Below are positions 2,258-33,618 of a DNA stretch of 64,000 nucleotides, in pieces. How positions within the stretch are numbered: position 1 is the first letter of the stretch; the number at the start of each line of letters is the position of its first letter. Source of the stretch: Candidatus Peribacteria bacterium (GTDB lineage: Bacteria; Patescibacteriota; Gracilibacteria; Peribacterales; Peribacteraceae); the NCBI GenBank assembly GCA_943355155.1, contig CALREJ010000001.1, positions 2,785 to 66,784 of the forward strand. Direction: 5' to 3'. A model generated the notes under the pieces. That model was not told the origin of the DNA. It searched no databases and saw only the letters and a list, made by a program, of their open reading frames with translations. Both the position numbers and the translations under genes were made by a program.

Positions 2258-2629
2258 TTAGCACGTCATGCATGCACACACTCGGTCGACAATTCCGTCG
2301 AGCTTCATTTCGTGTTTGATCAGACATTCCTTCACGCCGTATTTCTGGCATCGCGCGTAGTTTTCTTCTGTGAGTGAATTGGTGAGCACGACAACCGGAA
2401 TCGACAGATTATGTGACTGCATAAATTCGAGGACAGAAAATCCGTCACCTTGGGGCATCCGAAGATCGAGTACCACAACGTCAGGGCTTTTTTCCTCAAT
2501 CTGTGAAATCGCCGTCGTGCCATTGTTCGCACTAATGACGGTGAGGTTTCGTTCCGACTGTTCGCATCCCAAATGAAACAGCTGCGTGATGAGTGTGTCG
2601 TCGTCTGCGATCAGAATGGTTTTGGACAT
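2258..2629 (-). CDS. Stand-alone response-regulator receiver protein (CheY-like, 123 aa)
   Basis: MSKTILIADDD...VVVLDLRMPQGDGFSVLEF...PVVVLT gives the acidic pocket and phospho-acceptor Asp pattern. ATG at 2627-2629. The 288-aa form in the ORF track would overlap the opposite-strand membrane gene and is Lys/Arg-rich junk. Confidence 0.85.
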   Translation of the reverse strand: MSKTILIADDDTLITQLFHLGCEQSERNLTVISANNGTTAISQIEEKSPDVVVLDLRMPQGDGFSVLEFMQSHNLSIPVVVLTNSLTEENYARCQKYGVKECLIKHEMKLDGIVDRVCACMTC

Positions 2630-2704
2630 GGATGTGTGGGGAATGTTTCTGATCATTATAGCATGCATCACGTATTTTCGCCAGAGATACGCTAGTATGT
2701 TTCT

Positions 2705-4300
2705 GTGATTTTCCCGTTCAAGAAGCGCGCATTTCTTTTTCCTTTCACTGCGTCTGCTGTTTTTCTCAGCTTTCTTGTTTTGGGATTTTTTGTGCACGGA
2801 GATTTCGGAGTATCCGAAGACGAACCCGCGATGATGCGGTTTGGAAACGAAACGATTTTTCATTTTCTCGGTGTTGCGCCCGAGCCCGCAACAGTCGACT
2901 GGAAATTTCATAGTCCGCTGGTTTCTGTTGTAATGGTGATTGTGCAAATTCTTTCGCATGCAGTGAATGGATCGGACATTTGGCCTGTGCGTCACGGTGT
3001 CACATTTTTGTTTTTCTTTTTCACCGTTCTGACATTCTTCTTCATCGCACGACGAAGATATCACCGGTGGATGGCACTCATCGGCAGCATCTTCTTTATC
3101 CTCAGTCCCCGCGTCTTTGCTCACGGCATGTATAACCCGAAGGACATTCCTGCGCTGTTTTTTTTCACACTCGGCGTTCTGACATTCCTTCGTCTCCGCG
3201 AAAAATGGAGCATGTCCAGATTGGCCTTACATGCACTCGCTTGTGCGTTCTTACTCAGTTTGCGCACATTTGGACTTCTCCTCATTGTCTTCACGCTGTG
3301 GTCGATTCTGGCAGATTGTAGCAATGGGAAAATCTTGCAAAAGAAGATCTTATCACGCGCAGGATTATTTCTCACATGGCTGATCGTGCTCACGATTGCT
3401 GTGTGGCCGAGACTGTGGACGCACTCACTCGCGCATTTTCTTGAAGCTTTGCACAATAATACCTCTCGCGGTGGGGGAGGGCTGTATCTTGGGTCAATCT
3501 ATACAAGTACGCCGTGGCATTACGTTCCGGTCTGGATATTCATCACGACGCCGCTTCTTTATTCAGTGTCTGCGCTGATCGGAGCGATCGCAATTATTCG
3601 CTCCACAATTCTCAAACCTTTCGATACTCTCAGAAAATTTCCACATGAGTTCCTCTTTTTTCTGTGGTTCATGGCACCGATCATTGCCGTGCCGATTTTC
3701 CACATCGGACTTTTTAATGAATGGCGACACGTGCTCTTTATCTATCCTGCGTTACTTCTGCTCTCGCTCGAAGGAATCACTGTGCTCATGGAGGCATTAC
3801 AAGAAGTGAAGATTCCAAAGCGCATCGTGAACATTGTTCTCGTGTGGCTTATCGCAGCGTCCACACTCTCAACGGGATTCTGGATGCTCCGCAATCATCC
3901 GATGGAATATATGTATTTCAGCGTGCCGACGAGCTTGGTCAAGGGTCGATTTGAAATGGACTATTGGCATCTGTCGTATCGTCCTGCGCTCGAAGAATTG
4001 GTGAAGTTGCAACCAACCGGTTCTATCAAAGTCTACGTCAGCGCAAATGTCGCGCTTGGCTCTGCGATGTCACTTTCGCGCGCAGACAGAGAACGAATAG
4101 AGTTTGTAAATGCGGACATCGCGGACTATATCGTCGATGATTTTTATACGAATAATTATCAGCCTCGCATTCCTCTCGATAAAGCTTTGCGCGTCATCAG
4201 TGTCGATCATATTCCGGTTGCTGCGATTTACCGTGGTCCCGATACGGCGCATATTTTTCCGGAGTTTGGGGAGAGTGCGGTGCTGCCGAGGGATCGGTGA
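2705..4300 (+). CDS. Polytopic membrane protein, probably a GT-C (family 39/83, ArnT/PMT-like) glycosyltransferase
   Basis: 531 aa with about 10 or more hydrophobic segments. An acidic DE motif sits in the first loop (GVSEDEP), and a soluble C-terminal domain follows. Assignment rests on architecture only. Confidence 0.6.
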   Translation: MIFPFKKRAFLFPFTASAVFLSFLVLGFFVHGDFGVSEDEPAMMRFGNETIFHFLGVAPEPATVDWKFHSPLVSVVMVIVQILSHAVNGSDIWPVRHGVTFLFFFFTVLTFFFIARRRYHRWMALIGSIFFILSPRVFAHGMYNPKDIPALFFFTLGVLTFLRLREKWSMSRLALHALACAFLLSLRTFGLLLIVFTLWSILADCSNGKILQKKILSRAGLFLTWLIVLTIAVWPRLWTHSLAHFLEALHNNTSRGGGGLYLGSIYTSTPWHYVPVWIFITTPLLYSVSALIGAIAIIRSTILKPFDTLRKFPHEFLFFLWFMAPIIAVPIFHIGLFNEWRHVLFIYPALLLLSLEGITVLMEALQEVKIPKRIVNIVLVWLIAASTLSTGFWMLRNHPMEYMYFSVPTSLVKGRFEMDYWHLSYRPALEELVKLQPTGSIKVYVSANVALGSAMSLSRADRERIEFVNADIADYIVDDFYTNNYQPRIPLDKALRVISVDHIPVAAIYRGPDTAHIFPEFGESAVLPRDR

Positions 4301-4778: not shown

Positions 4779-4990
4779 TATAACGAAGGTGTGTGAAAGT
4801 ACAGGATCCCATTTTCTGGGGCTCGCCGCGGCGTAGTCTCGAAACGCTCGAGCGTTGCGGACGAAGCCGGGGCGTTCTGCACTAGGAAAGAACGGTCGGA
4901 AGGGCTCCATTGTGAGGAATTCTCGGCGTGTCGGCAAGGTAATTCTTGGAACAGTTTTGGATCATGCGTGACTCGGTCTAGAGTGACTCT

Positions 4991-11712: not shown

Positions 11713-12558
11713 ATGGCACAAGGAAGTGAACACTCTGCGGGATCAATTGGAGATGAGGATTCTGATTATTCTATAGAGCTTCCAGACAGGATTTTGTATC
11801 GTGATGCATACCCCAATGTAGATTTTGTGAATGCAGATAAGCCAGAGCAAGCAAAAGAAAGAGGAGATCAACGGGTAATCCCACAGCAAACTGCTCAAGA
11901 AAGAGAAGTCCATGCGCTTTGTGATAACCTAGGGTACGGCATCATTACGAGTCCGCCACCCTCTCATTGGACGGTGTTATTAAACCCCGCAGAGATTCAA
12001 TACTTGCAAGGCAGACGAAAATCAGATCTCACCGCTGCAGAAAAAATACAGATGGTATTGGCACTAGATCGCTCTGTCAGTATGGGGTCAGATACACGAG
12101 TCGTCTTTGAAGGTTCACCTAGCGCAGTCATGCAATGGCTCCAGAAAGCACCTCAAGCAACGGAATGGTCAGGTGATACGCAAAATGAAGATGGTTCAAG
12201 AACTTTCTTGCTCAATCAAAATGATCCAGGATGTCGCTGGGAGCGCCATGAGTTTCAGGCTGACGAGCCAATGATTGACGTAAAATTCCAAAAAGAAAGT
12301 GATACAGAAGTTGCAGTAATTCTTGGTGGACTTTTGATGACGTCTGCTCACGAAAATGACACTTCTGTTGAGATAAGAAGTGCTGATGGTAGATTGAAAG
12401 GTGAGGGAAGAGCGACGAATCGATATGTGTCTCACATAGATATTCAATGTAATGAAGCGGTCATTGCCGGAGATCACATTGTTATCCATTCTACTAAAAC
12501 TAAAACCGTTGGAAGAGAACCAAAAACTAATGATTTTGTACTTGAGCTAATACTTTGA
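11713..12558 (+). CDS. Hypothetical protein (281 aa), AT-rich gene
   Basis: Clean ORF with an ATG start after an AT-rich spacer. No motif recognised. Composition is visibly lower in GC than ftsH. Confidence 0.6.
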   Translation: MAQGSEHSAGSIGDEDSDYSIELPDRILYRDAYPNVDFVNADKPEQAKERGDQRVIPQQTAQEREVHALCDNLGYGIITSPPPSHWTVLLNPAEIQYLQGRRKSDLTAAEKIQMVLALDRSVSMGSDTRVVFEGSPSAVMQWLQKAPQATEWSGDTQNEDGSRTFLLNQNDPGCRWERHEFQADEPMIDVKFQKESDTEVAVILGGLLMTSAHENDTSVEIRSADGRLKGEGRATNRYVSHIDIQCNEAVIAGDHIVIHSTKTKTVGREPKTNDFVLELIL

Positions 12559-14378: not shown

Positions 14379-14502
14379 AGGTAAAATAATGATATTCTGT
14401 GCCCAATTTCGTGGAGAGTTTCGACAATATTTAAAATTGCTGACGCTGACTTTTTGTTTATGGCAAAGCCTTTTTGGCGTTCCACAGGTATGCAGAACGC
14501 CC

Positions 14503-19915: not shown

Positions 19916-20108
19916 ACCACGGTTCTTTACTTAGAAAACCATCGAGATTTTTCCGAGTGGTACTTTTTGGCTACAGGAAAAGATCTCCGGGCGTTCTTAC
20001 CTAGGGCAGAACGGTCAGGGGTATTTGCAAAATTCTGCAGCAGATAGGCAAAAGAGACCTGTCCGTAACTTGCCACCTTGCCAAACGTGACGTAAAGTCG
20101 ACGTTTGC

Positions 20109-23100
20109 ATGAACTCTCTTCCTTCCAGTATCGAGTCCTGTCTTCTTGATGCAGGCTTTTCCGGCACAGAAATCGTCATTTTGCAAAAGCTGCTCGAGAA
20201 CGATTCGCTCACCCTCCGTGAACTTGCGGCAAAAACGGGGAAGAGTACGGGCGTGCTCGATCAGGCCATGTCGAAACTTCTGAAGAAAAAAATCATCCAT
20301 CGCCAGATGGTCAATGATGCACCAAGATATATCCTTCAGTCGCTGCAGACCGTGCTCGATTGGATCCGTGATGACACGGAACTGCGTCAGCAGATGATGA
20401 TACGAAAATACCAAAATTTCGAAGCATTCCTTGCGTCTCTTCAGAAAAGAAAAACGCGACCCGAAATGGAATATTTTGAAGGAGAAGAAGGGATCCGTCG
20501 TGCGTACTCTCAGCTCCTCGATCGCGGGAAAGTATTTCTTTCCTACGGCCCTGTTCAATCCCCGGATATCGAAGAAGAATTGATCGACGTACGCAAACAC
20601 AATATCCGCGACCGAAAGAAGCGTGAAATTTTCTCCCGCGTCATCACCCAAAACACCCCGCTCGGTCGTCGTCTGCAATCCCGCGACCCCTTCGAATTCC
20701 GCCACACTGTCCTCGTCGATCCAGAAGAATACCCCTTCGCCTTCGAAACCATCATCGTGGGCGACACCGTCGCGTGTTTCCAGCTGAAAGACAAACGCGC
20801 CTGCTTCATCCATTACCCCGAACTCGCAGAGGAAGAGCGCGCCTTCTTCGAGAGTGTGTGGCAAAAAAACACAGTGCATACGCAAAAAGAGCCGGAGAGG
20901 AAAGAGGGGAGGGAGGTGATTGAAATGTCATCCCCCAGAAAAAAAGTACCGATGAGGGAAATCGTCAAAATACTCTTGCGAAAAAGAAACATTGGAATCT
21001 TGAGTGGTCTTTTTGTTCTCCTTTGTGCTCTTATTCCTGCAGCGTATTTTTATACTTTTTCAGTGACAAAGGCGGAGGTTGGCCAGCGATTGATGGCAAT
21101 TGTTTCGACTGCTGCAAAGGACATACGTGCAGATGATCTATCTGTACTTCACATCGCGAGCGACATGCAGCGTCCGGAGTATCAGAGAGTGTTTAACACA
21201 TTGAACGATGTGCGCAATCGGAACCACAATATTTTGTACATTTTTATCTACAGACCTACGGACATTCCGAATATGTGGGAATTTGTTGTCGATGCTGATT
21301 CCAATGTTAACTTACCTTTTGAAAGCGACGTGAATCATGATGGGAAGATTGATCCAAGTGAGCAGAATGTGTATCCGGGACGAAGCTATGACATGAGTAC
21401 CCAATCGCCTAAAATTTTGAATGAAGGAATGATCCGTCCGGTCTATGACACGACGACCTATACCGATCAATGGACGACAGATATCGCAGCGACAGCACCG
21501 ATTATGGATTCAAATGGTAATGGTGTGGCCGTCCTCTCCGCAGATATTTCCATGAAGGAACTTACGACTCTCGCATCCGCACACTTCAAACCTATTTTGT
21601 ATGGGTTGCTTGGAATGATTCTTTTGATTCTGATTGCGATGGGGGTGCAGGGGTGGGGGGTGCTGAGGGAGTGCTCTCTTTCAAACTTTAATTCACGATC
21701 ACGCTACACCCCCTTTTCCCGATGGGGCGAATTTTTCTTTAGTAAAGGAAGTGTAGCTATCTTCGGAGCATGTGCAGGATTATCCCTACTAGCGACATAT
21801 GCTTTCTACGCGCAAAATTTATATTTCAATACACAGCGCATTCGCGAGCAAGTAAAAAGCATCGCAGCGACAGGTGCGATTCAATTTTCTGCATCTGATA
21901 TCAATCAAGTGAGAAGCAAATATGATATTCAGAAGCCTGAGTACACAAAAATCATTCGTCAGCTCAATGATATACGCGATCAAAATCCCGATGTGAAATT
22001 TATCTACATCATGCGACCGACTGGAGATCCATTAAAATATGAATTCGTTGCAGATGCTGATTCCATTGATCCGGATAAAGTCTTTGATTTGAATCGTGAT
22101 GGAATACTGGATAAAGCAGATGAAAATATTGCGCCGGGAAGGCCATATGATGGCTCTCTTATTGATGTGTTACGTGATCATTCCTATACAGTGCCGATTG
22201 CGAGCAGTAAGGTATTTACGGATCAATGGGGAACGTTCATTTCTGGCTTCGCGCCAATCAAAGGTAGCGATGGCACTATCGTAGGTATTCTAGGAGTCGA
22301 TAAATGGGCAACCGATGCACACAACGCTACAAAAAATAGTTTTTCTTTGTGGGTTTGGGGCATAGTGTTTTTCCTTATTTTTTCTAGCTTAGGTCAGATT
22401 ATTTTTAACAGAGATATTCTTAGGGATTTGTACAAATCTATCAATGTGCGAAAAGTAATGATCAGCCTAGGAATCTCTTTCCTTTTAGCGACTTCCGTAA
22501 CCTATGGGCTCTATCTCTACACGCAAAAACTCACTCTTCAGCGCATGCAGCAGGTGGTGAAGTCTGTTGCAGAGGCTGCGGCATTGCAATTTAGTGCAGA
22601 TGATTTGAATGCCCTGCAAGTTGAAGAAGATTGGAAGAAGCCGGAGTGGGCGAAGGTGGTGAATCAGTTGAAACAAATTCGTGATAATAATAAGAATCTT
22701 GTCTACACATATATTCTAAGAAAAGATATTAAGGATGGCACAAAAATAAATTTTGTATCGGAAGCCGAATCAATTAATCCATATGTAAACATAGATAACG
22801 ATCCGAATAATAATATCGATGAAAATCAAGACGGCCTTATCGATGGAACACCAACAGGTGGCGATTATCTTGTTTGGCCTGGTCAACAATATGTAAATGC
22901 CCCGCCTGAAACCTTTCAAGCATATGCAGGTTCAACAACTAATCGGGAATTTTATGAAGATCAATTTGGCAAAGTGATTTCGGGTTATGCACCGATCAAA
23001 GATATTGCGGGAAAAACCGTAGCTGTTTTTGCAGCAGATATGCATGCCAATAAGTTGAATGAAATTGCAAAGAATAGCTTCATGCCATTCTACTTTTTTT

Positions 23101-23159
23101 TAGTAGTATTTATGCTTTCATTAATTATTCAATTCACTGCTTCCTATCGAAAATTTTGA
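20109..23159 (+). CDS. Fusion protein: TrmB-family transcriptional regulator, six TM helices and three tandem extracytoplasmic Cache/PDC-like sensor modules (1016 aa)
   Basis: N-terminal wHTH (GTEIVILQKLLENDSLTLRELAAKTGKSTGVLDQAMSKLLKKKII) and a TrmB-like C-domain run to about aa 255. Three modules then follow, each ending ...(Y/F)(T/E)DQ(W/F)G..ISG(F/Y)APIK...G..V(G/A)(I/V)... and each bracketed by hydrophobic helices. Confidence 0.8.
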   Translation: MNSLPSSIESCLLDAGFSGTEIVILQKLLENDSLTLRELAAKTGKSTGVLDQAMSKLLKKKIIHRQMVNDAPRYILQSLQTVLDWIRDDTELRQQMMIRKYQNFEAFLASLQKRKTRPEMEYFEGEEGIRRAYSQLLDRGKVFLSYGPVQSPDIEEELIDVRKHNIRDRKKREIFSRVITQNTPLGRRLQSRDPFEFRHTVLVDPEEYPFAFETIIVGDTVACFQLKDKRACFIHYPELAEEERAFFESVWQKNTVHTQKEPERKEGREVIEMSSPRKKVPMREIVKILLRKRNIGILSGLFVLLCALIPAAYFYTFSVTKAEVGQRLMAIVSTAAKDIRADDLSVLHIASDMQRPEYQRVFNTLNDVRNRNHNILYIFIYRPTDIPNMWEFVVDADSNVNLPFESDVNHDGKIDPSEQNVYPGRSYDMSTQSPKILNEGMIRPVYDTTTYTDQWTTDIAATAPIMDSNGNGVAVLSADISMKELTTLASAHFKPILYGLLGMILLILIAMGVQGWGVLRECSLSNFNSRSRYTPFSRWGEFFFSKGSVAIFGACAGLSLLATYAFYAQNLYFNTQRIREQVKSIAATGAIQFSASDINQVRSKYDIQKPEYTKIIRQLNDIRDQNPDVKFIYIMRPTGDPLKYEFVADADSIDPDKVFDLNRDGILDKADENIAPGRPYDGSLIDVLRDHSYTVPIASSKVFTDQWGTFISGFAPIKGSDGTIVGILGVDKWATDAHNATKNSFSLWVWGIVFFLIFSSLGQIIFNRDILRDLYKSINVRKVMISLGISFLLATSVTYGLYLYTQKLTLQRMQQVVKSVAEAAALQFSADDLNALQVEEDWKKPEWAKVVNQLKQIRDNNKNLVYTYILRKDIKDGTKINFVSEAESINPYVNIDNDPNNNIDENQDGLIDGTPTGGDYLVWPGQQYVNAPPETFQAYAGSTTNREFYEDQFGKVISGYAPIKDIAGKTVAVFAADMHANKLNEIAKNSFMPFYFFLVVFMLSLIIQFTASYRKF

Positions 23160-23196: not shown

Positions 23197-25038
23197 TTAT
23201 ATATCTAGTAAGAGCAAAATATGATCGTGATTTGCTTCAAAAAGAAACTGTGCGAGTCTCGGGCCAGAATCTTTCCCAAATAGCAAATAATAAATTTGTC
23301 GATAAAGAGCAAGTTGCTCAATTCTATTTTCCCTTTCTGTTGCGCCAAATCTTTTAGGTATTGAATAGAGAATCGACTCTAATTCTTCGACTTTCGAAAA
23401 TCTATTTTTTTTCAAAAAATTATGCAACTCTCTTATTTGATCAATATGTTTCAGCTCCATGTCAGACATGTATTCTATATTTGGCTCAGTAAGCAAACTA
23501 TGAATCATTCGAGAAGATATTTCCGAATATCTTTTCCCTTTATCTGTAAGTTCCAGCAGGTCAATATACATTTTTGCAAGCAAAATAGGTGCATCTTTTT
23601 TTACTGAATTCTTTTGGCCAAGCAATTTTTCAATATTTTTTGTCATTATTTTTTGCATTCCATTTCTTGATTTTCTTAGATTTTCCAAGTTTCCTAATTC
23701 CAAAATAGGTCTTACGATATAATCGTATATTTCTCGTTGTGGCAGTGTAGGTTTGCAAGTTATTTTTCGATTAATACTAACACTAGACGCTCCATGCCCG
23801 TAACCTCCATAGGGCTGAGTCCCTCTTTCTATGCCATGCGCATGTAAATGTGTATTTCTAATTATAGTACTCTCATCGTGCAGTAGTTTATCGTTAACAT
23901 ATTTCCCAGCCAAACTATCTATGTATTTGCTATCACCATAAACCGTGACATACATTGCGTTACGTGCATACTGATCATTTTCAAAATAATTAGAAAGCAT
24001 TACATCGTTTTCATATTCTTGTATAAAAAAAATTGGAGCAAAAACTTCATTATAATTACCCCCATCACGCAAAGGCTTATTTATTATTGTTGGCTCAACG
24101 ATTGACTGATTAGTGCGAATAACACCAGGTGTGTTTGAATTAATCCATTTTTTATTTTCAACTAAAAGCCCCTGTATTCTAATCAAATCTTCAATATCAT
24201 TAATTGGGCCAACGATACAGGATCTATCGTTGTAGTTACCAATTTTGATCCTTCTTAATTTTTCAAGCAATAGATTGTTAAATACAAGGAAAGATCTATT
24301 ATGAACAAGAATTGAATTTGGCGAGGCACAATCTTGGCCTTGGTTATATAGTTGCAATGTAAGAGCAGCTTCAACACTGTTAGAAATATCAGCGTGTTCA
24401 GTAATTATTAGGGGATTGTGACCGGCTCCATTTGTTATAAATAGGGTACGCTGATCAAAAACGGTACGCAAACGATCTGCGTGAAATGGAGTGCCAGTAA
24501 AAATAACTACGTCAGTAACTGGCTGATTTTCCTGTGTTTTGGTATTGATACATAAGGCCGTACGTTCAATTAAAAATTGTGCTCTCTCTTTTTTTGATAC
24601 ATGAATGTTTGGGAAAAAATCATGTATTTTTAGTATTTGTATAAGTTCTGGGAAAAAATATCGCATTCCTTGTGGTATTCTAAAATGTACCTCACTAGCC
24701 ATTAAAGAAGGAATAATAACAAAACAAGTTAGTGCGTAAAGTGGCTGATTCCGTGGAAGAAACGAAGTTACAGCACCAATGCGTAGCTTAAAATATTCAT
24801 TATTTTCATTGAGACTTCTTAAAAGATCTAAAGTGCGAGCAGTCTCATCCCTCACAACCTCAAAGCTTTCATACGTTGTTAATATTTTAGCAAGTGATTC
24901 AAAAGAGGCCTCAATATGTTCTGCAAATAGTAGGGCAATTTGATAACTTCTCTCAAAATCAATGAAGCTGTATTGCGATAAATCCTGAGTTGAATTTCTC
25001 ATGCCTGATAAATTATTAATTTCGTTAGCTATTAACAT
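23197..25038 (-). CDS. Aldehyde-dehydrogenase-superfamily (LuxC/acyl-reductase-like) enzyme fused to a class-I-LysRS-C-terminal-like helical domain (613 aa)
   Basis: ALDH-type Cys motif NQGQDCASPNSILV. NGAGHNP sits where ELGGKSP would be, so the Glu is absent. EVFAPIFF and PYGGYGHGAS are also present. The C-terminal ~150 aa ends ...LYRQIYYLLFGKDSGPRLAQFL, which resembles the FFKALY.VLLGKERGPRLGSF end of class I Lys-tRNA synthetases. Confidence 0.7.
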   Translation of the reverse strand: MLIANEINNLSGMRNSTQDLSQYSFIDFERSYQIALLFAEHIEASFESLAKILTTYESFEVVRDETARTLDLLRSLNENNEYFKLRIGAVTSFLPRNQPLYALTCFVIIPSLMASEVHFRIPQGMRYFFPELIQILKIHDFFPNIHVSKKERAQFLIERTALCINTKTQENQPVTDVVIFTGTPFHADRLRTVFDQRTLFITNGAGHNPLIITEHADISNSVEAALTLQLYNQGQDCASPNSILVHNRSFLVFNNLLLEKLRRIKIGNYNDRSCIVGPINDIEDLIRIQGLLVENKKWINSNTPGVIRTNQSIVEPTIINKPLRDGGNYNEVFAPIFFIQEYENDVMLSNYFENDQYARNAMYVTVYGDSKYIDSLAGKYVNDKLLHDESTIIRNTHLHAHGIERGTQPYGGYGHGASSVSINRKITCKPTLPQREIYDYIVRPILELGNLENLRKSRNGMQKIMTKNIEKLLGQKNSVKKDAPILLAKMYIDLLELTDKGKRYSEISSRMIHSLLTEPNIEYMSDMELKHIDQIRELHNFLKKNRFSKVEELESILYSIPKRFGATERENRIEQLALYRQIYYLLFGKDSGPRLAQFLFEANHDHILLLLDI

Positions 25039-25054
25039 GTATTTTTTGTGAGAA

Positions 25055-25405
25055 TTAATTTGTGACCTTCGGGAAATATAACATCAGAAAAGTGCCTGTG
25101 ATTGCAAAGGCTAATCCTAAATATTGCATCGCAGAAATTCGATTCCATTCTTGAAAAATTATCAATCCAACCATCACAGAAGTTATTGTTAATAAGGAGT
25201 CAATTGTTCCAGATGCTAGTGATAGACCAATCTTTGAGGTTGCAATTCCAAAACTAATATAAACAAACGGTGAAATTAAAACTAGTAGAAACAGCCAAAT
25301 AGATATTTTGTCAGTTCCTTTTGCCCAAATTGTGCTTATTGAATTTGCTAATACTGCAATTCCTACTGCCCCCAAAATGTATAACAAAAAAATCGGACTT
25401 TTCAT
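25055..25405 (-). CDS. Small 4-TM transporter of the SMR / ArnE-ArnF / EamA-half type (116 aa)
   Basis: Four hydrophobic helices in 116 aa. Lies 16 nt upstream of the reductase-like gene on the same strand. Confidence 0.65.
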   Translation of the reverse strand: MKSPIFLLYILGAVGIAVLANSISTIWAKGTDKISIWLFLLVLISPFVYISFGIATSKIGLSLASGTIDSLLTITSVMVGLIIFQEWNRISAMQYLGLAFAITGTFLMLYFPKVTN

Positions 25406-25630: not shown

Positions 25631-27091
25631 ATGGAAAAAACAAAAAACAAAAGATTAAGCTTGATTTGGGTGGGCACGGTAATTGTTCTTGGTGCAATAA
25701 TTGTCATTGCAATAATGTCTTGGTTTTTATATAAGCACACAGTAATTCTTTTGTCAGATAATTTAAGACAAAGATTGTTGTCGATAGCAATTACTCAGGT
25801 TGCCAATATTGATCCAGATGATATTCAATCTTTACAAGTGGAGGGTGATTGGAAAAAACCAGCTTGGTCACGTGTCGTAGGACAATTAAAGCGTGCGAAA
25901 AATAGCAATCCAAATATTGTTTATATGTACATTTTCAAAAAGTCAGATATTGATTCTACTAAAATGGTTTTTGTGGCAGATGCAGAATCTTTGAATCCAT
26001 ATGCAAATATAGATAATGATTTAGCAAATGATGTCGATGCGAATGGAGATGGGAAAATAGAGCCTGATGGAGCAGATAACTTGCAATGGCCAAGTCAAGA
26101 GTATCCAGAGCCACCCGCTGAGACATTTGAATCTTACAATGGACCACTAACTAGCAAAGATTTATATTCCGATGAATATGGGAAAGTATTAACTGGTTAT
26201 GCGCCGATTCTTGATTCGAATCAAAATGTTATTGCTGTTCTTGCAACCGATATAAGGGCGAATGATTTTTCAACAATTACTACACAAACACTTATTCCGT
26301 TTATTGGATTTATTATTTTCTTGGTTTTTGCGATTATTGTCTTGGCGCTATCTCTGATAATGGTTTGGAATAAGAGAGTTGAAGTTTTTGCCGAACTCGA
26401 CCGCCAAAAAGACGAACTGTTGGGTATGGTGAGCCACCAACTTGCAACGCCAGTTTCATCTTTGCGTTGGTATATGGAAATGTTTTTGGATGGAGATTTG
26501 GGTAAGGTCACGGATGAACAAAGGGTTCATCTTGTCTCTGCACAATCTGTTGCAACCAATTTATCCGATCTCGTGAGCCTTATTTTAGACGTGTCCCGTA
26601 TTCAACTTGGTCGTGTGAAGGTGGAGAAAGGCAAGTTGAAGTTGGACGATTTATTCAAGGAAATTTTAGATATTATAAAACCAAAGGCAGAACAGAAAGG
26701 CGTTCATTTTAAAGTATCTATTGATAAAAAATTACCCGTTGCGATGCTCGATAAGCGCTATACACACATGACTATTGAAAACCTTCTGAGCAATGCCGTG
26801 AAGTATACTCAGCCGAAGGGCACTGTGAATTTTACGGTCGCTGTGAAGGGTGAAACGCTCTACTGCGAAGTGTCGGATACCGGTGTGGGTATCCCCAAGG
26901 CAGACCAATCACAAATTTTCGGCAAGCTTTTCCGTGCGAGTAACGTAAGAAATGAAGTGGATGGAAATGGATTCGGTCTTTATGTGGCAAAGGGCGCTAT
27001 CGAGGCACAGGGAGGAAAGATCTGGTTCAAGAGTGAAGAGGGGAAGGGGACAACATTCTATGTTGAGTTGCCACTAAATGATGGAAAATAA
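25631..27091 (+). CDS. Sensor histidine kinase with extracytoplasmic Cache/PDC-like domain
   Basis: TM1, a sensor (aa ~45-215) paralogous to the modules of the 20109 gene, then TM2. H-box LLGMVSHQLATPVSSL, N-box LLSNAVKYT and G-boxes DTGVGI and GNGFGLYVAK. Confidence 0.9.
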   Translation: MEKTKNKRLSLIWVGTVIVLGAIIVIAIMSWFLYKHTVILLSDNLRQRLLSIAITQVANIDPDDIQSLQVEGDWKKPAWSRVVGQLKRAKNSNPNIVYMYIFKKSDIDSTKMVFVADAESLNPYANIDNDLANDVDANGDGKIEPDGADNLQWPSQEYPEPPAETFESYNGPLTSKDLYSDEYGKVLTGYAPILDSNQNVIAVLATDIRANDFSTITTQTLIPFIGFIIFLVFAIIVLALSLIMVWNKRVEVFAELDRQKDELLGMVSHQLATPVSSLRWYMEMFLDGDLGKVTDEQRVHLVSAQSVATNLSDLVSLILDVSRIQLGRVKVEKGKLKLDDLFKEILDIIKPKAEQKGVHFKVSIDKKLPVAMLDKRYTHMTIENLLSNAVKYTQPKGTVNFTVAVKGETLYCEVSDTGVGIPKADQSQIFGKLFRASNVRNEVDGNGFGLYVAKGAIEAQGGKIWFKSEEGKGTTFYVELPLNDGK

Positions 27092-27356
27092 TAAATTAGA
27101 ATATATGAATAGGTTATACATATAAGAAAATATATGAGTATAAATTTGATTCAATTGATTACAATTTTGTAGATGATTTTCATCTTGAGCCTTTCCAGAT
27201 GAGAGCCTCTCATTTTGCGTTCTTATCACCCACAGAACGCCCAAAGATCCTTATTGCGAGCCATAAACTCTGCTTTCACAAAACTAACCCCTCTCCCCGC
27301 ATCTCCCCAACCCTCATAAAATCTCCGACGATGGTGGCATCTTCCCCAATACCTTC

Positions 27357-30300: not shown

Positions 30301-31364
30301 ATATCTATGCTGCAGCAGTAGACACTTCAATTTTCAGTTCGAATATCACAAAACTTCTCGCAGACGCGCAATATGAAGTGCGCTTGTCACCGGATACGTC
30401 TTCTAGTCCACGTTTCACTGCTGCTCATCCCGATATCCCGAAATCGTCAAATCATGTGTACGATGGCAGCAGAGATATTCGTGTTCGATTCGATCTCCTC
30501 CCCTTCGGACAGGATTTCCTCTATGTCCAAGCTATCTTCAACGGTAACGTAGTAGCATCCTCGCGCTCAGCATTATTCATCGACATTCCCTTCTCTACCT
30601 TCAACCAATCTATGCCCAGTGCCACCATCACGCTCCGCGCAGGACTGTCGAATGGTACGACGATAGAAATAGAGAGTGATGCGTTTGTGATTGCTCCAGA
30701 TGCACTTTTTGATAAAGATTTCAGTAAAGTTTTAGATAGTGCTCCTGCAGATAAAAGATCTGCAGTTTCCGGAGCTTTAAAAATGGATCTTAGCAATCTG
30801 CCCGCAAAAAATAATTTGCTGCTTACATTTTTAGAGAAAAAATATTTCAGTACAGGTGAATTGCAGTTTGATGTATATAACAATACTAAAGGTTTTGAAT
30901 TACAGAGTACGCAAGAACATGGTGGTGATCAGTGCAAAACCTGGTTGTATAATATCGTGAACGAAGAGACAAATGGAGATACTCTCTTACCTCCAAATGC
31001 TACCAAGAGCACATGGGATTTAGAGAACAATAATGAAATTTCAACAATTTCCTCTGGTATAAAAGGAGAATTTGAGACCAAGACAATCGATTGTGTGAGC
31101 GGAGATATTGTGCAGGTCGATTATAGTGGTAGACAACATACAATGGTTATTGGAAAAGTCGAGAACACGGGTATTTGGTTCTTTGATTCAAATTTTGGTG
31201 AATTGCAAGAATATGAGATGGATCCAAATGATTCGACTAAATTTTTACTTGATGTAAATGGTAATAAAAATCTACTACAAGATGATGAAACAGTGAGGTA
31301 TCACTTTATTTCCTACGATACGCTTAATAAAAATGCGCTGGAATTTTCAATTTACAGGCTATAA
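27357..31364 (+). CDS. Large exported protein (1335 aa) with a basic N-terminal LE.R.LLS motif, an Ala/Thr-rich coiled-coil region and a C-terminal papain-like (NlpC/P60 or CHAP type) Cys-His module
   Basis: N-terminus ...SSARKARRPFQNFPATAHVETLEKRALLSS. aa ~120-380 are A/T/K/E-rich and heptad-like. C-terminus: GGDQC(1193)KTWLYN ... GDIVQVDYSGRQH(1261)TMVIGKV..GIWFFDSN. Confidence 0.8.
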   Translation: MPPSSTPEHRNKDSNEKFVFLDYIPPFGSYEHIPEQTHSVWSKLSGLFSSARKARRPFQNFPATAHVETLEKRALLSSTTSPSLEIHTGEGELETHIHDLEKQMETLVRELAANDTALTAAHKAVDSGRNALSARQATLDHADGLVAADLLKVAPVLEAASKTVQAKKVSDAADLQVKLGTDRLALDTDVMKLARTAYTTAVAERTHKNPLFTAAVVAQCKADYTAASAVVTADTKAVSTFRATATAARAALTSAQKVEAKARTKYARDLTTLATDQKNQETAMLLRDGADTFLKTSLTQESELQDAAAKIESDITRSTRDLADAKAEYSALAERNALATSLSIVVQAELQAEAEKIAYPKMFVTSVQRSDFVEFTVRYRTPLPSTTFSVKRAANAQNEYFDGPSLDTPVRDGEWKFTMGRGIPRSEELTIRMVNGETGKVVEEVYGWFNKDSLSGGINTAQTSFDIDEEGMLSENPIAPSLSVIRVQGNAVLLAIASPFDQTNIYSDTGGLLSSVELSHKGGTTFTPVTIYLDAGNWNGDYKIHMQERPGGKEIDTVNLHWDRDSKRASLIDSADTYTGPENTDGTFDAKLALNSIPLTIEDPDIARIQSSNLYQATDSFAGPLRLYISAERFLTDFFYADSSPYVKYRADHIEATIDAYWDRIGHTYSRDAARDTIHKEKAAVEKQHMDMLHDRENGARELIQSAVNIFLKILRGESDNFPLQDLDKRVTWWNERGQIWWLNQVGVSSFNRTHLLNAAKIIFNNQWQYLLQVNNDVLQLRTYEDRQREAGLAKNAEGQWNAVSPQEPELIAPGIDRNALVRAARIDWVMRNSPDSRIVAMHGDQRDVFVLTLSNFLSQNPTADTQSSIIVAMNLVDERTTDLLKNGGVRISGPTHSDQKEAADAIANVPQRTLYNEALSWYDNTPDSLHGTLSLRTDTIVGKMMMGAARKLWMEPTAEKRWEIAFTLQRLTDIPAKKFMDIYAAAVDTSIFSSNITKLLADAQYEVRLSPDTSSSPRFTAAHPDIPKSSNHVYDGSRDIRVRFDLLPFGQDFLYVQAIFNGNVVASSRSALFIDIPFSTFNQSMPSATITLRAGLSNGTTIEIESDAFVIAPDALFDKDFSKVLDSAPADKRSAVSGALKMDLSNLPAKNNLLLTFLEKKYFSTGELQFDVYNNTKGFELQSTQEHGGDQCKTWLYNIVNEETNGDTLLPPNATKSTWDLENNNEISTISSGIKGEFETKTIDCVSGDIVQVDYSGRQHTMVIGKVENTGIWFFDSNFGELQEYEMDPNDSTKFLLDVNGNKNLLQDDETVRYHFISYDTLNKNALEFSIYRL

Positions 31365-32067
31365 CTATCTTTTTTTACTATTGTTAGTGGTAAGTATTTC
31401 GGCGTGTAATAGAGCTGTTTCTACTAACTCCCACAATAATTATAGCAATAAAAATTCTCAGGTGTGTGCTATTGTAGATAAAGCGAAATGTGATAAAAAC
31501 TTTTGTAAACCGGGATATAAAACCTTTGAAAATTGGGAGATTGCGAGTGCAAGTGGAGGTTATGATTTTCTTACCGGAGATTGTGATACTGCTTTGTTAC
31601 TGCCAACGGTTCCCTCTGATTGGGTATTTCGTATTTTGCCTGATTCAAATATCGAATTATCGCTTCCTCCTAATGCAAAAATAAATGCAAAATATCTTAA
31701 CTCAAATAAAAAAGGATTTTTTGAACAAGGCCCATTTTTTTCTTGGATGATCGAAAAAAGCGAATGGAATAAATCAACAGATGATTTTCTTGATGCTCAG
31801 TGTGCAGGTGCTACAACATTCGCTTTTTCAGAAGAAAAAGGAGATTATCAGGGGTCATATTCCGCAGTGGGTAAATTTGTTTCTGGCATTAAACAAATGA
31901 ACAATGGATTCGAGGTTGCGAAATTTCAACCAAAATGCGCAAATATGATGGAATTTTTGATCCGTTACAACAATGTGATTTATGTTTTTTCTTCTCTTGG
32001 GGAAAATAGCCATGAGAGTGAAGAGAGGTTTGAAAGAAGTATTTTGAATGCAAGAGTATTCAAATAG
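31333..32067 (+). CDS. Lipoprotein (244 aa), candidate immunity protein
   Basis: Its ATG lies 32 nt inside the 3' end of the preceding gene. The signal plus lipobox is LLLLVVSISAC. AT-rich like the upstream C-terminal module. Confidence 0.65.
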   Translation: MRWNFQFTGYNYLFLLLLVVSISACNRAVSTNSHNNYSNKNSQVCAIVDKAKCDKNFCKPGYKTFENWEIASASGGYDFLTGDCDTALLLPTVPSDWVFRILPDSNIELSLPPNAKINAKYLNSNKKGFFEQGPFFSWMIEKSEWNKSTDDFLDAQCAGATTFAFSEEKGDYQGSYSAVGKFVSGIKQMNNGFEVAKFQPKCANMMEFLIRYNNVIYVFSSLGENSHESEERFERSILNARVFK

Positions 32068-32159
32068 CCTTAGTTTTTGTATTCTTCTGCCAAAGAATCC
32101 AGAATCGTTGCTGCGCAAGAGATTGACATATTTAATTATTATATTAAAATATTTATAAT

Positions 32160-32975
32160 ATGTTGCTTGACGATATATTGGCTCAGGCTAATTTTGATCT
32201 AACCAGAGTAGAAACAAATGATTTAATGCAGGATCCGCGATATTGGATGTTAGGTGAAAATCAACATTGGTTTCGCATGCAACTACTCGAAGCCATTCCT
32301 GTCTGCGTTGCTGATGTATCAACACTTCGCATTCATTCTTCAGAACATCGTATACGAACAAGAATGGAACGTTTATTTTCTCGAGAAAATACTGATGATT
32401 CCTACATGCCAGGTAAGAATCATCAAGATGAAAAAGTGAGGAAAATTACTAGTGGGAATAATGGACTGCTTGTGTGGCCTGCACAAAGTGGTATTGAAAC
32501 GATGCCAGCAAAACTTCTTGAGCACTTGGAACACCAAAATGTTATTTTCCATAAGCTACGCAATGGTTTATGGCTAGTTATGAATGGTCAAAGGAAGGAT
32601 GTGCCAGATATAAAAAATGCGAAGGTCAACATCCGCGAGTTGAGCAATCAAATTCTGACCACACTTGAAAAACATGGAAAAGTTGTAGGTGATTTCCAAG
32701 CTGAAAATGCAACAAGGCTTTGTGTGTGCGTAAAACAAACGCATGGCTTACCCGATATGAGAGTAATTGCAAATTTAAATTATCAAAAATGGATAGAGCA
32801 TCAAGTTGCTCTTTATAGAATACAGCGAGATATTGCAAAAATCGTTTCTCCTGAAAAACTTCATTTTTTAATGGAGGGCGTAGATCAATCTCAATGGCAA
32901 GAAGCAGTTGATGCAATAAAAAAAACCCCCCCGAGCGATGTTGGATATGCTTCAGCCATTGACTTCAATTTCTGA
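32160..32975 (+). CDS. Hypothetical protein (271 aa), possibly the 5' fragment of a frameshifted gene
   Basis: ATG-started AT-rich ORF. An A8C7 homopolymer pair at 32918-32932 lies just before its stop, and the next frame opens there. Confidence 0.55.
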   Translation: MLLDDILAQANFDLTRVETNDLMQDPRYWMLGENQHWFRMQLLEAIPVCVADVSTLRIHSSEHRIRTRMERLFSRENTDDSYMPGKNHQDEKVRKITSGNNGLLVWPAQSGIETMPAKLLEHLEHQNVIFHKLRNGLWLVMNGQRKDVPDIKNAKVNIRELSNQILTTLEKHGKVVGDFQAENATRLCVCVKQTHGLPDMRVIANLNYQKWIEHQVALYRIQRDIAKIVSPEKLHFLMEGVDQSQWQEAVDAIKKTPPSDVGYASAIDFNF

Positions 32976-33195
32976 AGATACCTATAGGCCAAAGAAGACA
33001 GATGAAATTGAGCGGTTGTTTATAGAAAAGGATTATCATAAAGCCTTGCACGAACTTAGTCTTTTAGAAGGGGGGAATGTATTCATCCATGAACAATTAG
33101 CAAAGGGTCATACGTTTGAAGGAAGAATACATGGTTTAGCATCTAAAAAAGAAGATGCTGTATTGGATGAATGGATGATTCTAAGATATTTCTGA
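32938..33195 (+). CDS. Hypothetical ORF (85 aa), probable middle fragment of the same disrupted gene
   Basis: Frame +1 relative to the 32160 ORF and open from 32920 onward, inside the A-run. Confidence 0.35.
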   Translation: MLDMLQPLTSISEDTYRPKKTDEIERLFIEKDYHKALHELSLLEGGNVFIHEQLAKGHTFEGRIHGLASKKEDAVLDEWMILRYF

Positions 33196-33247
33196 AAGTG
33201 CTTTTACGACATTAATAGATACAGAGATTTCAAAACGGTTTGATCGC

Positions 33248-33481
33248 TTGCACCCTCAAATAATCAAGTTAATGAAAAAAAATTTGGGAATGAAGGATGT
33301 GGGTATTTTAATTCTTGGCGGTGCACATTTCAGTTCTGGATGGAATAAAAAAATACCAATTGAATGTAATGACAAGTTGATGGAAGATTATTTCAATAAA
33401 TCTAAAGAATTAAAAGACATGCGCCTCATTGTCGTAGACCCACACTGCTATGGTGGGATCGATAATAACATTGGTTCATGA
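33248..33481 (+). CDS. Hypothetical ORF (77 aa), probable 3' fragment of the same disrupted gene
   Basis: Frame is open from 33185 and overlaps the end of the previous fragment (stop at 33193-33195). It is again shifted +1. The listed start is TTG. Confidence 0.35.
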   Translation: MHPQIIKLMKKNLGMKDVGILILGGAHFSSGWNKKIPIECNDKLMEDYFNKSKELKDMRLIVVDPHCYGGIDNNIGS

Positions 33482-33618
33482 CTCGGTGTGAGAATGTTTT
33501 AACTATTTTAGGAACGTCATATTAAGCGAAAACATGTTCATCCTTCTATACATTTTTGTGCTGTAAAAAAATTCAGGATTAACACGTTGTTGCTATATCT
33601 ATCTGCTATCATCCCCCC

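What the first reader, a model, noticed from the sequence alone, without database searches (positions are those of the whole stretch)
20109..23159. TrmB-family regulator fused in frame to a six-TM, triple Cache/PDC-like sensor array
One uninterrupted 1016-aa ORF joins two parts. The first is what looks like a complete cytoplasmic TrmB regulator: a wHTH plus an effector-type domain, to about aa 255. The second is six hydrophobic helices, starting at about aa 300, 500, 560, 755, 785 and 990. These bracket three ~170-aa modules that are paralogous to each other and to the sensor of the kinase at 25631. An even TM count between modules places all three sensors outside and the HTH inside. That would make it a membrane-tethered one-component regulator with three sensors in series. 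Base composition drops sharply at about 20,900, at the junction between the two parts, which suggests a fusion of DNA from different origins. I do not recall TrmB regulators described with this architecture.
Basis: partly seen in the sequence, partly recalled or inferred. Interest (0 to 1): 0.65.

Follow-up and report, generated by a model that had tools for sequence, protein, structure and literature searches.

The report
Membrane-tethered regulator with stacked sensor cassettes
This gene encodes a DNA-binding regulator anchored in the membrane by three repeated "helix-sensor-helix" cassettes, one member of an undescribed family in Peregrinibacteria (tiny uncultured bacteria) in which such cassettes are added, lost and swapped between close relatives.

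Summary
ORF 20109-23159 is one uninterrupted 1016-aa gene with six hydrophobic helices and three paralogous ~240-aa modules that also resemble the sensor of the kinase at 25631.

AlphaFold2 and Foldseek show that aa 1-259 is a TrmBL2-like regulator: wHTH, long helix and PLD-like domain, without the sugar-binding subdomain. The modules are single Cache/PDC domains, each between two TM helices.

The fusion is neither an artefact nor recent. More than 180 homologues, almost all from Peregrinibacteria, keep the same N-terminal domain followed by 0-5 cassettes.

New findings:
- Relatives with 95-97% identical N-termini carry different cassettes, with breakpoints in the cytoplasmic loops.
- A Cache-type histidine kinase lies within 5 kb in 54 of 58 loci, and no response regulator is linked.
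- A palindrome, CGTTCY-N10-RGAACG, sits about 100 bp upstream of the gene. It is about 40-fold enriched there across loci.
- The GC3 drop at the domain junction is family-wide (0.68 to 0.43), so it is not a local fusion scar.

Best reading: a transmembrane transcription regulator of the ToxR/CadC kind, with a TrmB-type DNA-binding part and a serial, exchangeable Cache array. It is a new variant of a known kind. Ligands, targets and signalling mechanism are inferred only.

The parts
19992..20013 (.). Palindrome CGTTCT-N10-AGAACG, 96 bp upstream of the ATG; candidate operator
   Evidence: Perfect copy here. In the related loci, 32 of 73 copies (<=1 mismatch to CGTTCY-N10-RGAACG) lie within 250 bp upstream of the regulator gene, about 40-fold enriched. 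Which protein binds it is inferred.
20070..20098 (+). Sigma-70-like promoter match TTGCCA-17-TAAAGT
   Evidence: Consensus scan only: 1 found against 0.2 expected. It is overlapped by a window-specific palindrome at 20082-20107.
20109..23159 (+). Whole gene, 1016 aa: TrmB-like regulator plus three TM-Cache-TM cassettes
   Evidence: Uninterrupted ORF. Full-length homologues cover 96-100% of the query.
20124..20336 (+). Winged helix-turn-helix (aa 6-76); recognition-helix motif KSTGVLDQA is nearly invariant
   Evidence: AF2 secondary structure. Sub-threshold Pfam hits to TrmB and HTH_24. K45 is invariant, and G44, S46, T47, G48, L50, D51 and A53 are at least 90% conserved.
20343..20450 (+). Long helix (aa 79-114), at the position of the TrmB/TrmBL2 dimerisation helix
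   Evidence: AF2 helix 79-114. Full-length Foldseek alignment to TrmBL2. The dimerisation role is inferred.
20463..20885 (+). Alpha/beta PLD-like domain (aa 119-259) with conserved motif GRRxQSRDPFExRxT
   Evidence: AF2 model. Foldseek hits to TrmBL2, vaccinia F13, PLD3 and SauUSI. R177 and D193 are invariant.
20886..20990 (+). Flexible linker and basic juxtamembrane stretch (aa 260-294)
   Evidence: pLDDT 52-71 over aa 260-292. Five K/R in the 15 residues before TM1.
20991..21647 (+). Cassette 1: TM1 (aa 295-313), Cache module with loop DVNHDGKIDPSE, TM2 (aa 495-513)
   Evidence: Hydropathy. Homology to M3 and to the HK sensor. Motif position.
21648..21749 (+). Cytoplasmic loop 1 (aa 514-547, 5 K/R)
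   Evidence: In relatives, the recombination breakpoints fall in this kind of loop.
21750..22403 (+). Cassette 2: TM3 (aa 548-566), Cache module with loop DLNRDGILDKAD, TM4 (aa 747-765)
22404..22454 (+). Cytoplasmic loop 2 (aa 766-782, 5 K/R)
22455..23135 (+). Cassette 3: TM5 (aa 783-801), Cache module with loop DENQDGLID, TM6 (aa 991-1009)
   Evidence: AF2 pLDDT 93.9, pTM 0.86, two long flanking helices. Foldseek top hits are Tlp3, mmHK1S-Z2, WalK, CitA and DcuS.
23197..25405 (-). Variable low-GC insert between regulator and kinase: ALDH-like 613-aa gene and SMR/DMT-like 116-aa gene
   Evidence: Pfam Aldedh E 1.7e-19 and a weak EbrB hit. GC3 is 0.25-0.27. Other loci carry different genes or none in this slot.
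25631..27091 (+). Linked histidine kinase: same TM-Cache-TM cassette (aa 1-255) plus HisKA and HATPase_c
   Evidence: Pfam. Its sensor is 42% identical to M3. An HK lies within 5 kb in 54 of 58 related loci, and 42 of them carry this module.

Best explanation
The gene encodes a transmembrane transcription regulator, that is, a membrane-anchored one-component system of the kind exemplified by ToxR and CadC. It is specific to Peregrinibacteria.

Shown:
- A cytoplasmic TrmBL2-like unit (wHTH, long helix, PLD-like domain) is joined by a ~30-residue flexible linker to a six-helix membrane part.
- The membrane part is made of three self-contained cassettes. Each cassette is TM, single Cache/PDC domain, TM.
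- The family is conserved, carries 0-5 cassettes, and swaps cassettes at the cytoplasmic loops.
- The gene is linked to a histidine kinase carrying the same kind of cassette.
- A conserved palindrome lies about 100 bp upstream of the gene.

Inferred:
- The three Cache domains face outside, and each binds a small ligand. Most also carry a DxNxDG loop that may bind Ca2+.
- Ligand occupancy changes the packing or oligomerisation of the TM bundle. That changes how the TrmB-like units pair on DNA, as proposed for ToxR and CadC, whose linkers are also flexible.
- The protein binds the CGTTCY-N10-RGAACG palindrome while still in the membrane. It thereby regulates its own gene and a small regulon. In this window the candidate targets are dprA, a DUF3800 gene and a 1335-aa ORF.
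- Because every cassette starts and ends in the cytoplasm, adding or removing one leaves the topology of the rest intact. This would explain the variable copy number and lets lineages re-tune which signals are integrated.
For: Architecture.

TrmBL2-like fold: AF2 pLDDT 90.3; Foldseek 5bqt E 5e-11 over 266 columns, plus PLD-fold hits. Stand-alone ~260-aa homologues exist.

Cache fold: AF2 pLDDT 93.9, pTM 0.86. All top Foldseek hits are Cache/PDC sensors, with TM-score up to 0.74 normalised to CitA.

Family: 184 hits, mostly named Peregrinibacteria or Peribacteraceae. 131 relatives in species-representative genomes. Module counts run from 0 to 5.

Cassette exchange: P0035 and P0006 are ~95% identical up to aa ~510 and then diverge, with 2 versus 4 modules. 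P0110 and P0039 are ~97% identical up to aa ~545, with 2 versus 3 modules. Module order is mosaic across the family.

Topology: 5 K/R in each short loop and before TM1. The same module in the HK precedes cytoplasmic HisKA/HATPase_c domains.

Operator candidate: a perfect palindrome at 19992-20013. Of 73 copies in about 1 Mb of related loci, 32 lie within 250 bp upstream of the regulator. The recognition helix is nearly invariant.

Kinase linkage: an HK within 5 kb in 54 of 58 loci.

Known class: the TTR census lists TrmB as the DNA-binding domain of 65 TTRs, 0.13% of the total. The Cache survey lists transcription factors as an output class.
Against: - No experiment or dedicated topology predictor was available.
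- No full-length or multimer model was made, so how cassettes 2 and 3 would signal to a DNA-binding unit attached only to TM1 is unknown.
- The best structural match, TrmBL2, is a non-specific chromatin protein, not a specific regulator.
- The palindrome is found upstream in only about 40% of loci at the stringency used. It also occurs at other intergenic sites, so another factor could bind it.
- Its half-site centres are 16 bp apart, which is unusual for a wHTH dimer.
- Pfam TrmB and Cache models score below their thresholds on this protein.
- The flexible linker argues against rigid helix-to-helix signal transmission.
Confidence: 0.6

Rival explanations
1. Proteolytic release. The sensor array holds the TrmB-like unit inactive at the membrane. 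A signal triggers cleavage in the flexible linker or in TM1. The freed ~260-aa regulator then acts like its soluble homologues.
For: The linker at aa 260-292 is disordered, with pLDDT 52-71. Soluble ~260-aa homologues exist at 35-47% identity. A paper on cleavage-dependent activation of CadC turned up in the search; I saw its title and abstract only (PMC11484849).
Against: No protease gene is conserved next to the regulator in the loci examined. No cleavage motif was identified. Several characterised TTRs act while membrane-bound, per the abstracts.
Confidence: 0.15
2. Kinase co-receptor. The main role of the array is to form a mixed sensor complex with the neighbouring orphan histidine kinase through the shared Cache/TM cassettes. 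The two outputs are coupled, or the TrmB-like part is itself a target of the kinase.
For: An HK lies within 5 kb in 54 of 58 loci, and 42 of them carry the same module. In L004/L005 the HK starts 33 bp downstream on the same strand. Receiver domains are present in only 3 of 83 loci. M3 is 42% identical to the HK sensor.
Against: The HK sensors form their own orthologous group: for 45 of 45, the best hit is an HK from another locus. So there is no sign of co-evolution with the regulator in the same genome. The regulator has no receiver domain. A receiver-domain ORF exists elsewhere in the window, at 2258-3226.
Confidence: 0.12
3. Nucleoid-membrane tether. Like TrmBL2, the N-terminal unit binds DNA without sequence preference, and the protein anchors or organises DNA at the membrane rather than regulating specific promoters.
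For: The best structural match is the chromatin protein TrmBL2. dprA and a PilT-like ATPase, both DNA-uptake genes, lie in the neighbourhood.
Against: The recognition helix is nearly invariant, and a conserved palindrome is enriched upstream of the gene. Three ligand-type sensor domains are hard to reconcile with a purely structural role.
Confidence: 0.06
4. Artefact. Two separate genes were joined by misassembly or a sequencing error at the compositional junction.
For: GC drops at about 20,900, at the domain junction.
Against: Dozens of independent assemblies encode the same fusion with 96-100% query coverage. 71 of 73 complete genes in related loci carry at least one cassette after the N-terminal domain. 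The same GC3 step is seen in 71 of 77 genes.
Confidence: 0.01

Closest known systems
Transmembrane transcription regulators (TTRs): ToxR, TcpP, CadC; also TfoS and ChiS of Vibrio cholerae
   Same: The DNA-binding domain and the membrane anchor are in one polypeptide. The DNA-binding part is N-terminal and cytoplasmic, on a flexible linker, and the sensor is extracytoplasmic. This is one-component logic. The TTR census records TrmB-type DNA-binding domains in 65 TTRs.
   Different: ToxR and CadC use an OmpR-type wHTH and a single TM. Here the DNA-binding unit is TrmBL2-like with a PLD-like domain. The membrane part has six TMs, and the sensor is three serial Cache domains, each bracketed by its own TM pair. 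[quoted passage not shown]
TrmB family, especially TrmBL2 (PDB 5bqt, 5bpd) of Thermococcales
   Same: The wHTH, long helix and PLD-like alpha/beta domain align over ~266 columns at E 5e-11. The length is similar, at ~260 aa.
   Different: TrmBL2 is soluble, archaeal and binds DNA non-specifically. True TrmB has an extra sugar-binding subdomain that is absent here. Sequence identity is only 14-16%, and Pfam TrmB scores below threshold on this protein.
Cache/PDC sensor kinases and chemoreceptors (CitA, DcuS, WalK, Tlp3, DctB)
   Same: The layout is TM1, PDC fold, TM2 with a long N-terminal stalk helix. The TM-score normalised to CitA reaches 0.72-0.74.
   Different: The output is a DNA-binding unit on the N-terminal side, not a kinase or MCP module on the C-terminal side. 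Cassettes are iterated 1-5 times. A ~60-residue loop carries a DxNxDG motif. No Pfam Cache model reaches threshold, and no PDB sequence relative was found.

Membership tests
TrmB family of transcription regulators | N-terminal wHTH matching Pfam PF01978 above the gathering score | tested here: inconclusive
   The window protein scores 19.2 bits against a cut-off of 25.6. Some homologues pass, for example P0141 at 27.3 bits, and precomputed PF01978 hits are on record for many.
TrmB family of transcription regulators | wHTH followed by a long helix and a PLD-like alpha/beta domain, as in TrmBL2/TrmB structures | tested here: met
   AF2 pLDDT 90.3. Foldseek alignment to TrmBL2 5bqt, E 5e-11, 266 columns, TM-score 0.49-0.59.
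TrmB family of transcription regulators | C-terminal sugar-binding domain (Regulator_TrmB, PF11495) of the two-domain TrmB proteins | tested here: not met
   No PF11495 hit even at E 0.1. The soluble unit ends at aa ~259, the length of TrmBL2.
TrmB family of transcription regulators | Sequence-specific DNA binding as a dimer | not testable with these tools
   Indirect evidence only: a conserved recognition helix and an enriched upstream palindrome.
Cache/PDC sensor superfamily | PAS-like alpha/beta fold with a long N-terminal helix | tested here: met
   AF2 model of M3, pLDDT 93.9. The top 50 Foldseek hits are essentially all Cache/PDC/CHASE-type sensors. M1 and M2 are homologous to M3 at E 1e-26 to 1e-36.
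Cache/PDC sensor superfamily | Match to a Pfam Cache model above the gathering score | tested here: not met
   dCache_1 scores 15.7, sCache_3_3 16.1 and MCP-like_PDC_1 16.2 bits, against cut-offs of 27-45. Faint precomputed hits exist in homologues.
Cache/PDC sensor superfamily | Extracytoplasmic location between two TM helices | tested here: inconclusive
   Each module has two flanking hydrophobic helices, the short loops are rich in K/R, and the same module precedes the cytoplasmic kinase core in the HK. No dedicated topology predictor or experiment was available.
Transmembrane transcription regulators (TTR, one-component) | A DNA-binding domain and at least one TM region in one protein, with no receiver or kinase domain | tested here: met
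   The definition is as used in PMC10269533.
Transmembrane transcription regulators (TTR, one-component) | Regulates transcription while anchored in the membrane | not testable with these tools
   Needs in vivo localisation and reporter assays.
ToxR/CadC-type receptors (narrow sense) | OmpR-type wHTH (Trans_reg_C) and a single TM helix | tested here: not met
   No Trans_reg_C hit. Six TM segments.
Two-component response regulator | Receiver (REC) domain with a phospho-acceptor Asp | tested here: not met
   No Response_reg hit in the protein. A REC profile finds receiver ORFs in only 3 of 83 related loci.

The most novel reading that the evidence does not exclude
The regulator and the always-adjacent orphan kinase form a Peregrinibacteria-specific signalling unit. 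It is built from one hot-swappable part, the TM-Cache-TM cassette. Cassettes are exchanged between lineages by recombination in the cytoplasmic loops, which leaves the low-GC3 footprint. A cell with few regulators can thereby re-program which external or host-derived cues it integrates. The output acts directly from the membrane on a small regulon that includes DNA-uptake genes such as dprA. This would be a combinatorial, evolvable multi-input receptor of a kind not described for one-component systems.
Probability: 0.2. Interest if true: 0.8.

Novelty: new variant of a known kind. Interest (0 to 1): 0.6.

Why it matters
Peregrinibacteria, like other CPR bacteria, have small genomes and few regulators, and they probably depend on other cells. 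A near-universal, fast-evolving surface sensor wired directly to DNA is therefore a good candidate for how they read their surroundings or hosts.

For signal-transduction research, the family is a natural experiment. The same DNA-binding unit works with 0, 1, 2, 3, 4 or 5 identical-topology sensor cassettes, so signal integration across several TM pairs could be tested directly.

The cassette is also a ready-made modular part for building multi-input membrane sensors.

The family-wide intragenic GC3 step is a clean case for studying how domain-level recombination shapes composition.

Tried and rejected
- **PDB sequence search, N-terminal region:** only a marginal MarR-type hit, E 0.26. The fold search was needed.
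- **PDB profile search, module alignment:** nothing below E 0.2.
- **Word-indexed homologue search with the M3 ectodomain alone:** only 3 fragments returned. It says nothing about other output domains that might carry this Cache subtype.
- **First literature search:** wasted, because 'cache' matched 'cachexia'.
- **Recent gene conversion between M3 and the neighbouring HK sensor:** rejected. Every HK sensor is closest to an HK from another locus.
- **Low GC3 as a general feature of membrane or secreted proteins:** rejected. The P-type ATPase, FtsH, DsbD-like, HTTM and giant ORFs of this window have GC3 of 0.49-0.58.
- **The palindrome as an intrinsic terminator:** rejected. No terminator-like site was found. 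The arm sequence itself, not just its complementarity, is conserved between genomes.
- **Misassembly:** rejected.
Full report
**1. The observation**

The window has one uninterrupted ORF at 20109-23159 (+), 1016 aa, starting with ATG. A 19-residue Kyte-Doolittle scan finds six hydrophobic segments, at aa 295-313, 495-513, 548-566, 747-765, 783-801 and 991-1009.

The three stretches bounded by TM pairs are clear paralogues: 28-33% identity, BLASTP E 1e-26 to 1e-36. The third is 42% identical (E 1e-65) to the N-terminal 240 residues of the histidine kinase at 25631-27091.

GC falls from 0.55 to 0.44 across 20,750-21,050. This is a synonymous-site effect. GC3 is 0.59 for aa 1-285, 0.47 in M1 and 0.34 in M2 and M3.

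One addition: composition keeps falling beyond the gene. GC3 is 0.25-0.27 in the two downstream genes and in the sensor half of the kinase. It recovers only in the kinase half, at 0.46.

**2. What the parts are**

Pfam and NCBIfam give only sub-threshold hits on this protein. TrmB scores 19.2 bits and HTH_24 19.0 bits. The Cache models score 16 bits. I therefore used structure prediction.

*N-terminal region.* I modelled aa 1-292 with an alignment of 111 homologues. The AlphaFold2 model has mean pLDDT 90.3 and shows:
- a winged HTH at aa 6-76;
- a 36-residue helix at aa 79-114;
- an alpha/beta domain at aa 119-259;
- a poorly ordered linker to TM1.

Foldseek against the PDB puts archaeal TrmBL2 first, at E 5e-11 over 262-275 aligned columns. 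Next come small wHTH regulators matching the first domain, and PLD-fold proteins (vaccinia F13, PLD3, SauUSI) matching the second. The unit is therefore a complete TrmBL2-type protein. It lacks the extra sugar-binding subdomain of true TrmB, and no Regulator_TrmB hit is found.

*Module M3.* I modelled aa 774-1016 with 45 other module sequences. The model has pLDDT 93.9 and pTM 0.86. It shows a 50-residue N-terminal helix (TM5 plus stalk), a five-stranded PAS-like core and a 35-residue C-terminal helix (TM6). The top Foldseek hits are all Cache/PDC sensors: Tlp3, mmHK1S-Z2, WalK, a formate sCache, CitA, DcuS and DctB. The TM-score reaches 0.72-0.74 when normalised to CitA.

No PDB sequence relative exists for the module.

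Each module carries a well-predicted loop of about 60 residues with a DxNxDG motif:
- M1: DVNHDGKIDPSE
- M2: DLNRDGILDKAD
- M3: DENQDGLID
- HK: DANGDGKIE

The motif is present in 98 of 148 regulator modules and 39 of 43 kinase sensors. From general knowledge, this resembles EF-hand or DxDxDG calcium loops. Ca2+ binding here is an inference.

**3. Topology (inferred)**

- The HTH must be cytoplasmic to reach DNA.
- Each module has exactly two flanking TM helices.
- The segment before TM1 and both short inter-cassette loops (34 and 17 residues) each hold five K/R.
- The homologous module in the kinase is followed by cytoplasmic HisKA/HATPase_c.

This places all three Cache domains outside. No dedicated predictor was available.

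**4. The family**

The fusion is not local. A search of 5.8 billion proteins returns 184 hits. Many align over 96-100% of the query. Where they are named, the names are Peregrinibacteria, Peribacteraceae or Patescibacteria.

Counting modules with an HMM gives 2 modules in 57 proteins, 3 in 48, 4 in 14 and 5 in one, among the 120 listed.

A full HMMER scan with the N-terminal 262 aa finds 738 relatives, 106 of them at E <= 1e-30. These include:
- one-module forms of ~520-575 aa;
- stand-alone soluble proteins of ~255-300 aa at 35-47% identity;
- two fusions to EamA transporters.

In species-representative genomes there are 131 relatives. In the 73 complete genes read from the fetched loci (the scan's 78 plus the five fetched earlier), the counts are 0 modules in 2, 1 in 22, 2 in 35, 3 in 10 and 4 in 4.

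The N-terminal unit is far better conserved than the modules: 40-63% identity to the window protein for all but one aligned homologue (28%), against about 30-45%.

**5. Cassettes are exchanged**

Module types are not in a fixed order. The window's M1 type is usually the last module elsewhere, and its M2 type is usually the first.

Among 436 protein pairs whose N-terminal domains are 70-99.5% identical, 187 differ in module number.

Two pairs show the breakpoints:
- P0035 (2 modules) and P0006 (4 modules) are about 95% identical up to about aa 510, the end of TM2, and then diverge sharply.
- P0110 (2 modules) and P0039 (3 modules) are about 97% identical up to about aa 545.

The breakpoints lie in the cytoplasmic loops between cassettes. 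Each cassette begins and ends in the cytoplasm, so gain, loss or replacement of one keeps the topology of the rest intact.

**6. The compositional step is a family trait**

Across 77 related genes, mean GC3 is 0.68 in the N-terminal domain and 0.43 in the sensor part. In 71 of them the difference exceeds 0.1.

The positional profile falls from 0.68-0.72 at codons 0-250 to 0.41 at codons 400-450. It rises to 0.51 over TM2-loop-TM3 and falls again to 0.37.

The linked kinases show the same pattern: sensor 0.33 against kinase 0.49, in 41 of 45.

Other membrane proteins of this window have GC3 of 0.49-0.57. Sensor GC3 tracks host GC3 only weakly, with slope 0.40.

The step is therefore not the scar of a fusion in this genome. 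Repeated import of cassettes from lower-GC lineages fits section 5. A local mutational or recombinational regime is not excluded. I leave this unresolved.

**7. Neighbourhood**

The gene order is conserved in distant genomes: ligA, an 84-aa gene, a PilT-like ATPase, a variable stretch, the regulator, 0-3 variable genes, and a histidine kinase.

Among loci with enough flanking sequence:
- 54 of 58 have a kinase within 5 kb;
- 50 of these kinases are downstream, and 41 of those 50 are on the same strand;
- 42 carry the same module.

In L004/L005 the kinase starts 33 bp after the regulator. A receiver-domain profile finds response-regulator ORFs in only 3 of 83 loci. In the window, the only one is 17 kb away, at 2258-3226.

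In this window, an aldehyde-dehydrogenase-like gene and a small SMR/DMT-like gene fill the slot between regulator and kinase. Other loci have methyltransferases there, or nothing. EamA (DMT) transporters often follow the kinase.

**8. A candidate operator**

A perfect palindrome, CGTTCT-N10-AGAACG, lies at 19992-20013, 96 bp upstream of the ATG. The same palindrome lies about 100-200 bp upstream of the regulator in L001 and L004/L005, and a 2-mismatch version in L003.

Across all loci and the window, 73 copies match CGTTCY-N10-RGAACG with at most one mismatch. Of these, 32 fall in the 250 bp upstream of the regulator gene. That is about 1.6 per kb, against 0.04 per kb elsewhere. Several more lie 300-650 bp upstream, in front of a small ORF.

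Most of the remaining copies are intergenic. In the window they sit:
- 97 bp upstream of dprA;
- about 100 bp upstream of a DUF3800 gene;
- 118 bp upstream of the 1335-aa ORF.

No terminator-like feature is present. A weak sigma-70-like match lies at 20070-20098.

Together with the nearly invariant recognition helix, KSTGVLDQA, this suggests that the protein recognises this site and autoregulates. That is an inference. Another factor could bind the site.

**9. Mechanism**

*Best reading (confidence about 0.6 overall).* This is a transmembrane transcription regulator. External ligands, and possibly Ca2+, bind the Cache domains. They alter the packing or oligomerisation of the TM bundle. That in turn alters how the TrmB-like units pair on the palindrome, while the protein stays in the membrane.

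The flexible linker argues against rigid piston-type coupling. It favours control by proximity or oligomerisation, as discussed for ToxR and CadC (general knowledge).

*Rivals.*
- Signal-triggered proteolytic release of the ~260-aa unit: 0.15.
- A co-receptor role with the orphan kinase: 0.12.
- A TrmBL2-like non-specific DNA tether: 0.06.
- Artefact: 0.01.

**10. Comparison with what is known**

The class is known. Demey et al. 2023 (PMC10269533) catalogue TTRs. They report 56% as single-pass. Their supplementary table lists TrmB as the DNA-binding domain in 65 TTRs (0.13%) and Regulator_TrmB in 9. Their text does not mention Cache, Patescibacteria or this architecture.

The Cache survey (PMC4822843) lists transcription factors among Cache output classes.

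Searches combining TrmB with Cache, or Peregrinibacteria with signalling terms, found no description of this family.

I therefore file it as a new variant of a known kind. It is a TTR with a TrmBL2-type DNA-binding unit and an iterated, exchangeable TM-Cache-TM array, tightly linked to a kinase built from the same cassette.

**11. Verdict**

The feature is real, conserved and undescribed. Its 'fusion of foreign DNA' reading is replaced by a family-wide pattern of cassette exchange. Interest 0.6.

Noticed in passing
window 23197-25405 (-), and the matching slot in L001, L003, L004/L005: The slot between the regulator and its kinase is variable. Here it holds a 613-aa aldehyde-dehydrogenase-like gene with an unexplained ~250-aa C-terminal extension, and a 116-aa SMR/DMT-like gene, both with GC3 ~0.25. 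L001 has methyltransferases there, and L004/L005 have nothing.
   Followed up: partly
window 4873-4894, 14478-14499, 27218-27239: There are further copies of the CGTTCT-N10-AGAACG palindrome, two perfect and one with one mismatch. Each lies about 100-120 bp upstream of a start codon: dprA, a DUF3800 gene and the 1335-aa ORF. This may be a regulon. The binding protein is unknown.
   Followed up: partly
window 20082-20107: A second, window-specific palindrome, CAAACGT-N12-ACGTTTG, overlaps the predicted -10 hexamer and ends 2 bp before the ATG of the regulator.
   Followed up: no
77 related regulator genes and 45 linked kinases (loci L001-L083): There is a family-wide intragenic GC3 step: cytoplasmic domains 0.68 (regulator) and 0.49 (kinase), against Cache-coding DNA at 0.43 and 0.33. 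Other membrane proteins do not share it. The cause is unresolved.
   Followed up: partly
window 31000-33500 and 11713-12558: Other low-GC stretches hold ORFs without any Pfam match: 31333-32067, 32160-32975, and 11713-12558 with GC3 0.31. These may be further islands.
   Followed up: no
window 2258-3226 (-) versus 2705-4300 (+): A receiver-domain ORF on the minus strand overlaps a long plus-strand ORF that has only weak PMT hits. Only one of the two is likely to be real. If it is the receiver ORF, it is the only response regulator found in the window.
   Followed up: no
proteins P0164 (780 aa) and P0141 (1042 aa): The same TrmB-like N-terminal unit is fused directly to an EamA (DMT) transporter, in P0141 after two Cache cassettes. 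EamA genes also sit next to the kinase in L003-L005, which hints at a functional link to a transported metabolite.
   Followed up: partly
window 41562-54287 (-) and 54284-57706 (-): A giant 4241-aa ORF is followed by an overlapping 1140-aa ORF with a weak MG2-domain hit. Neither was examined.
   Followed up: no
window 20463-20885 (aa 119-259): The PLD-like domain carries a strongly conserved basic motif, GRRxQSRDPFExRxT, with R177 and D193 invariant across 112 sequences. Its role is unknown. It could be a second nucleic-acid, lipid or partner-binding surface.
   Followed up: no
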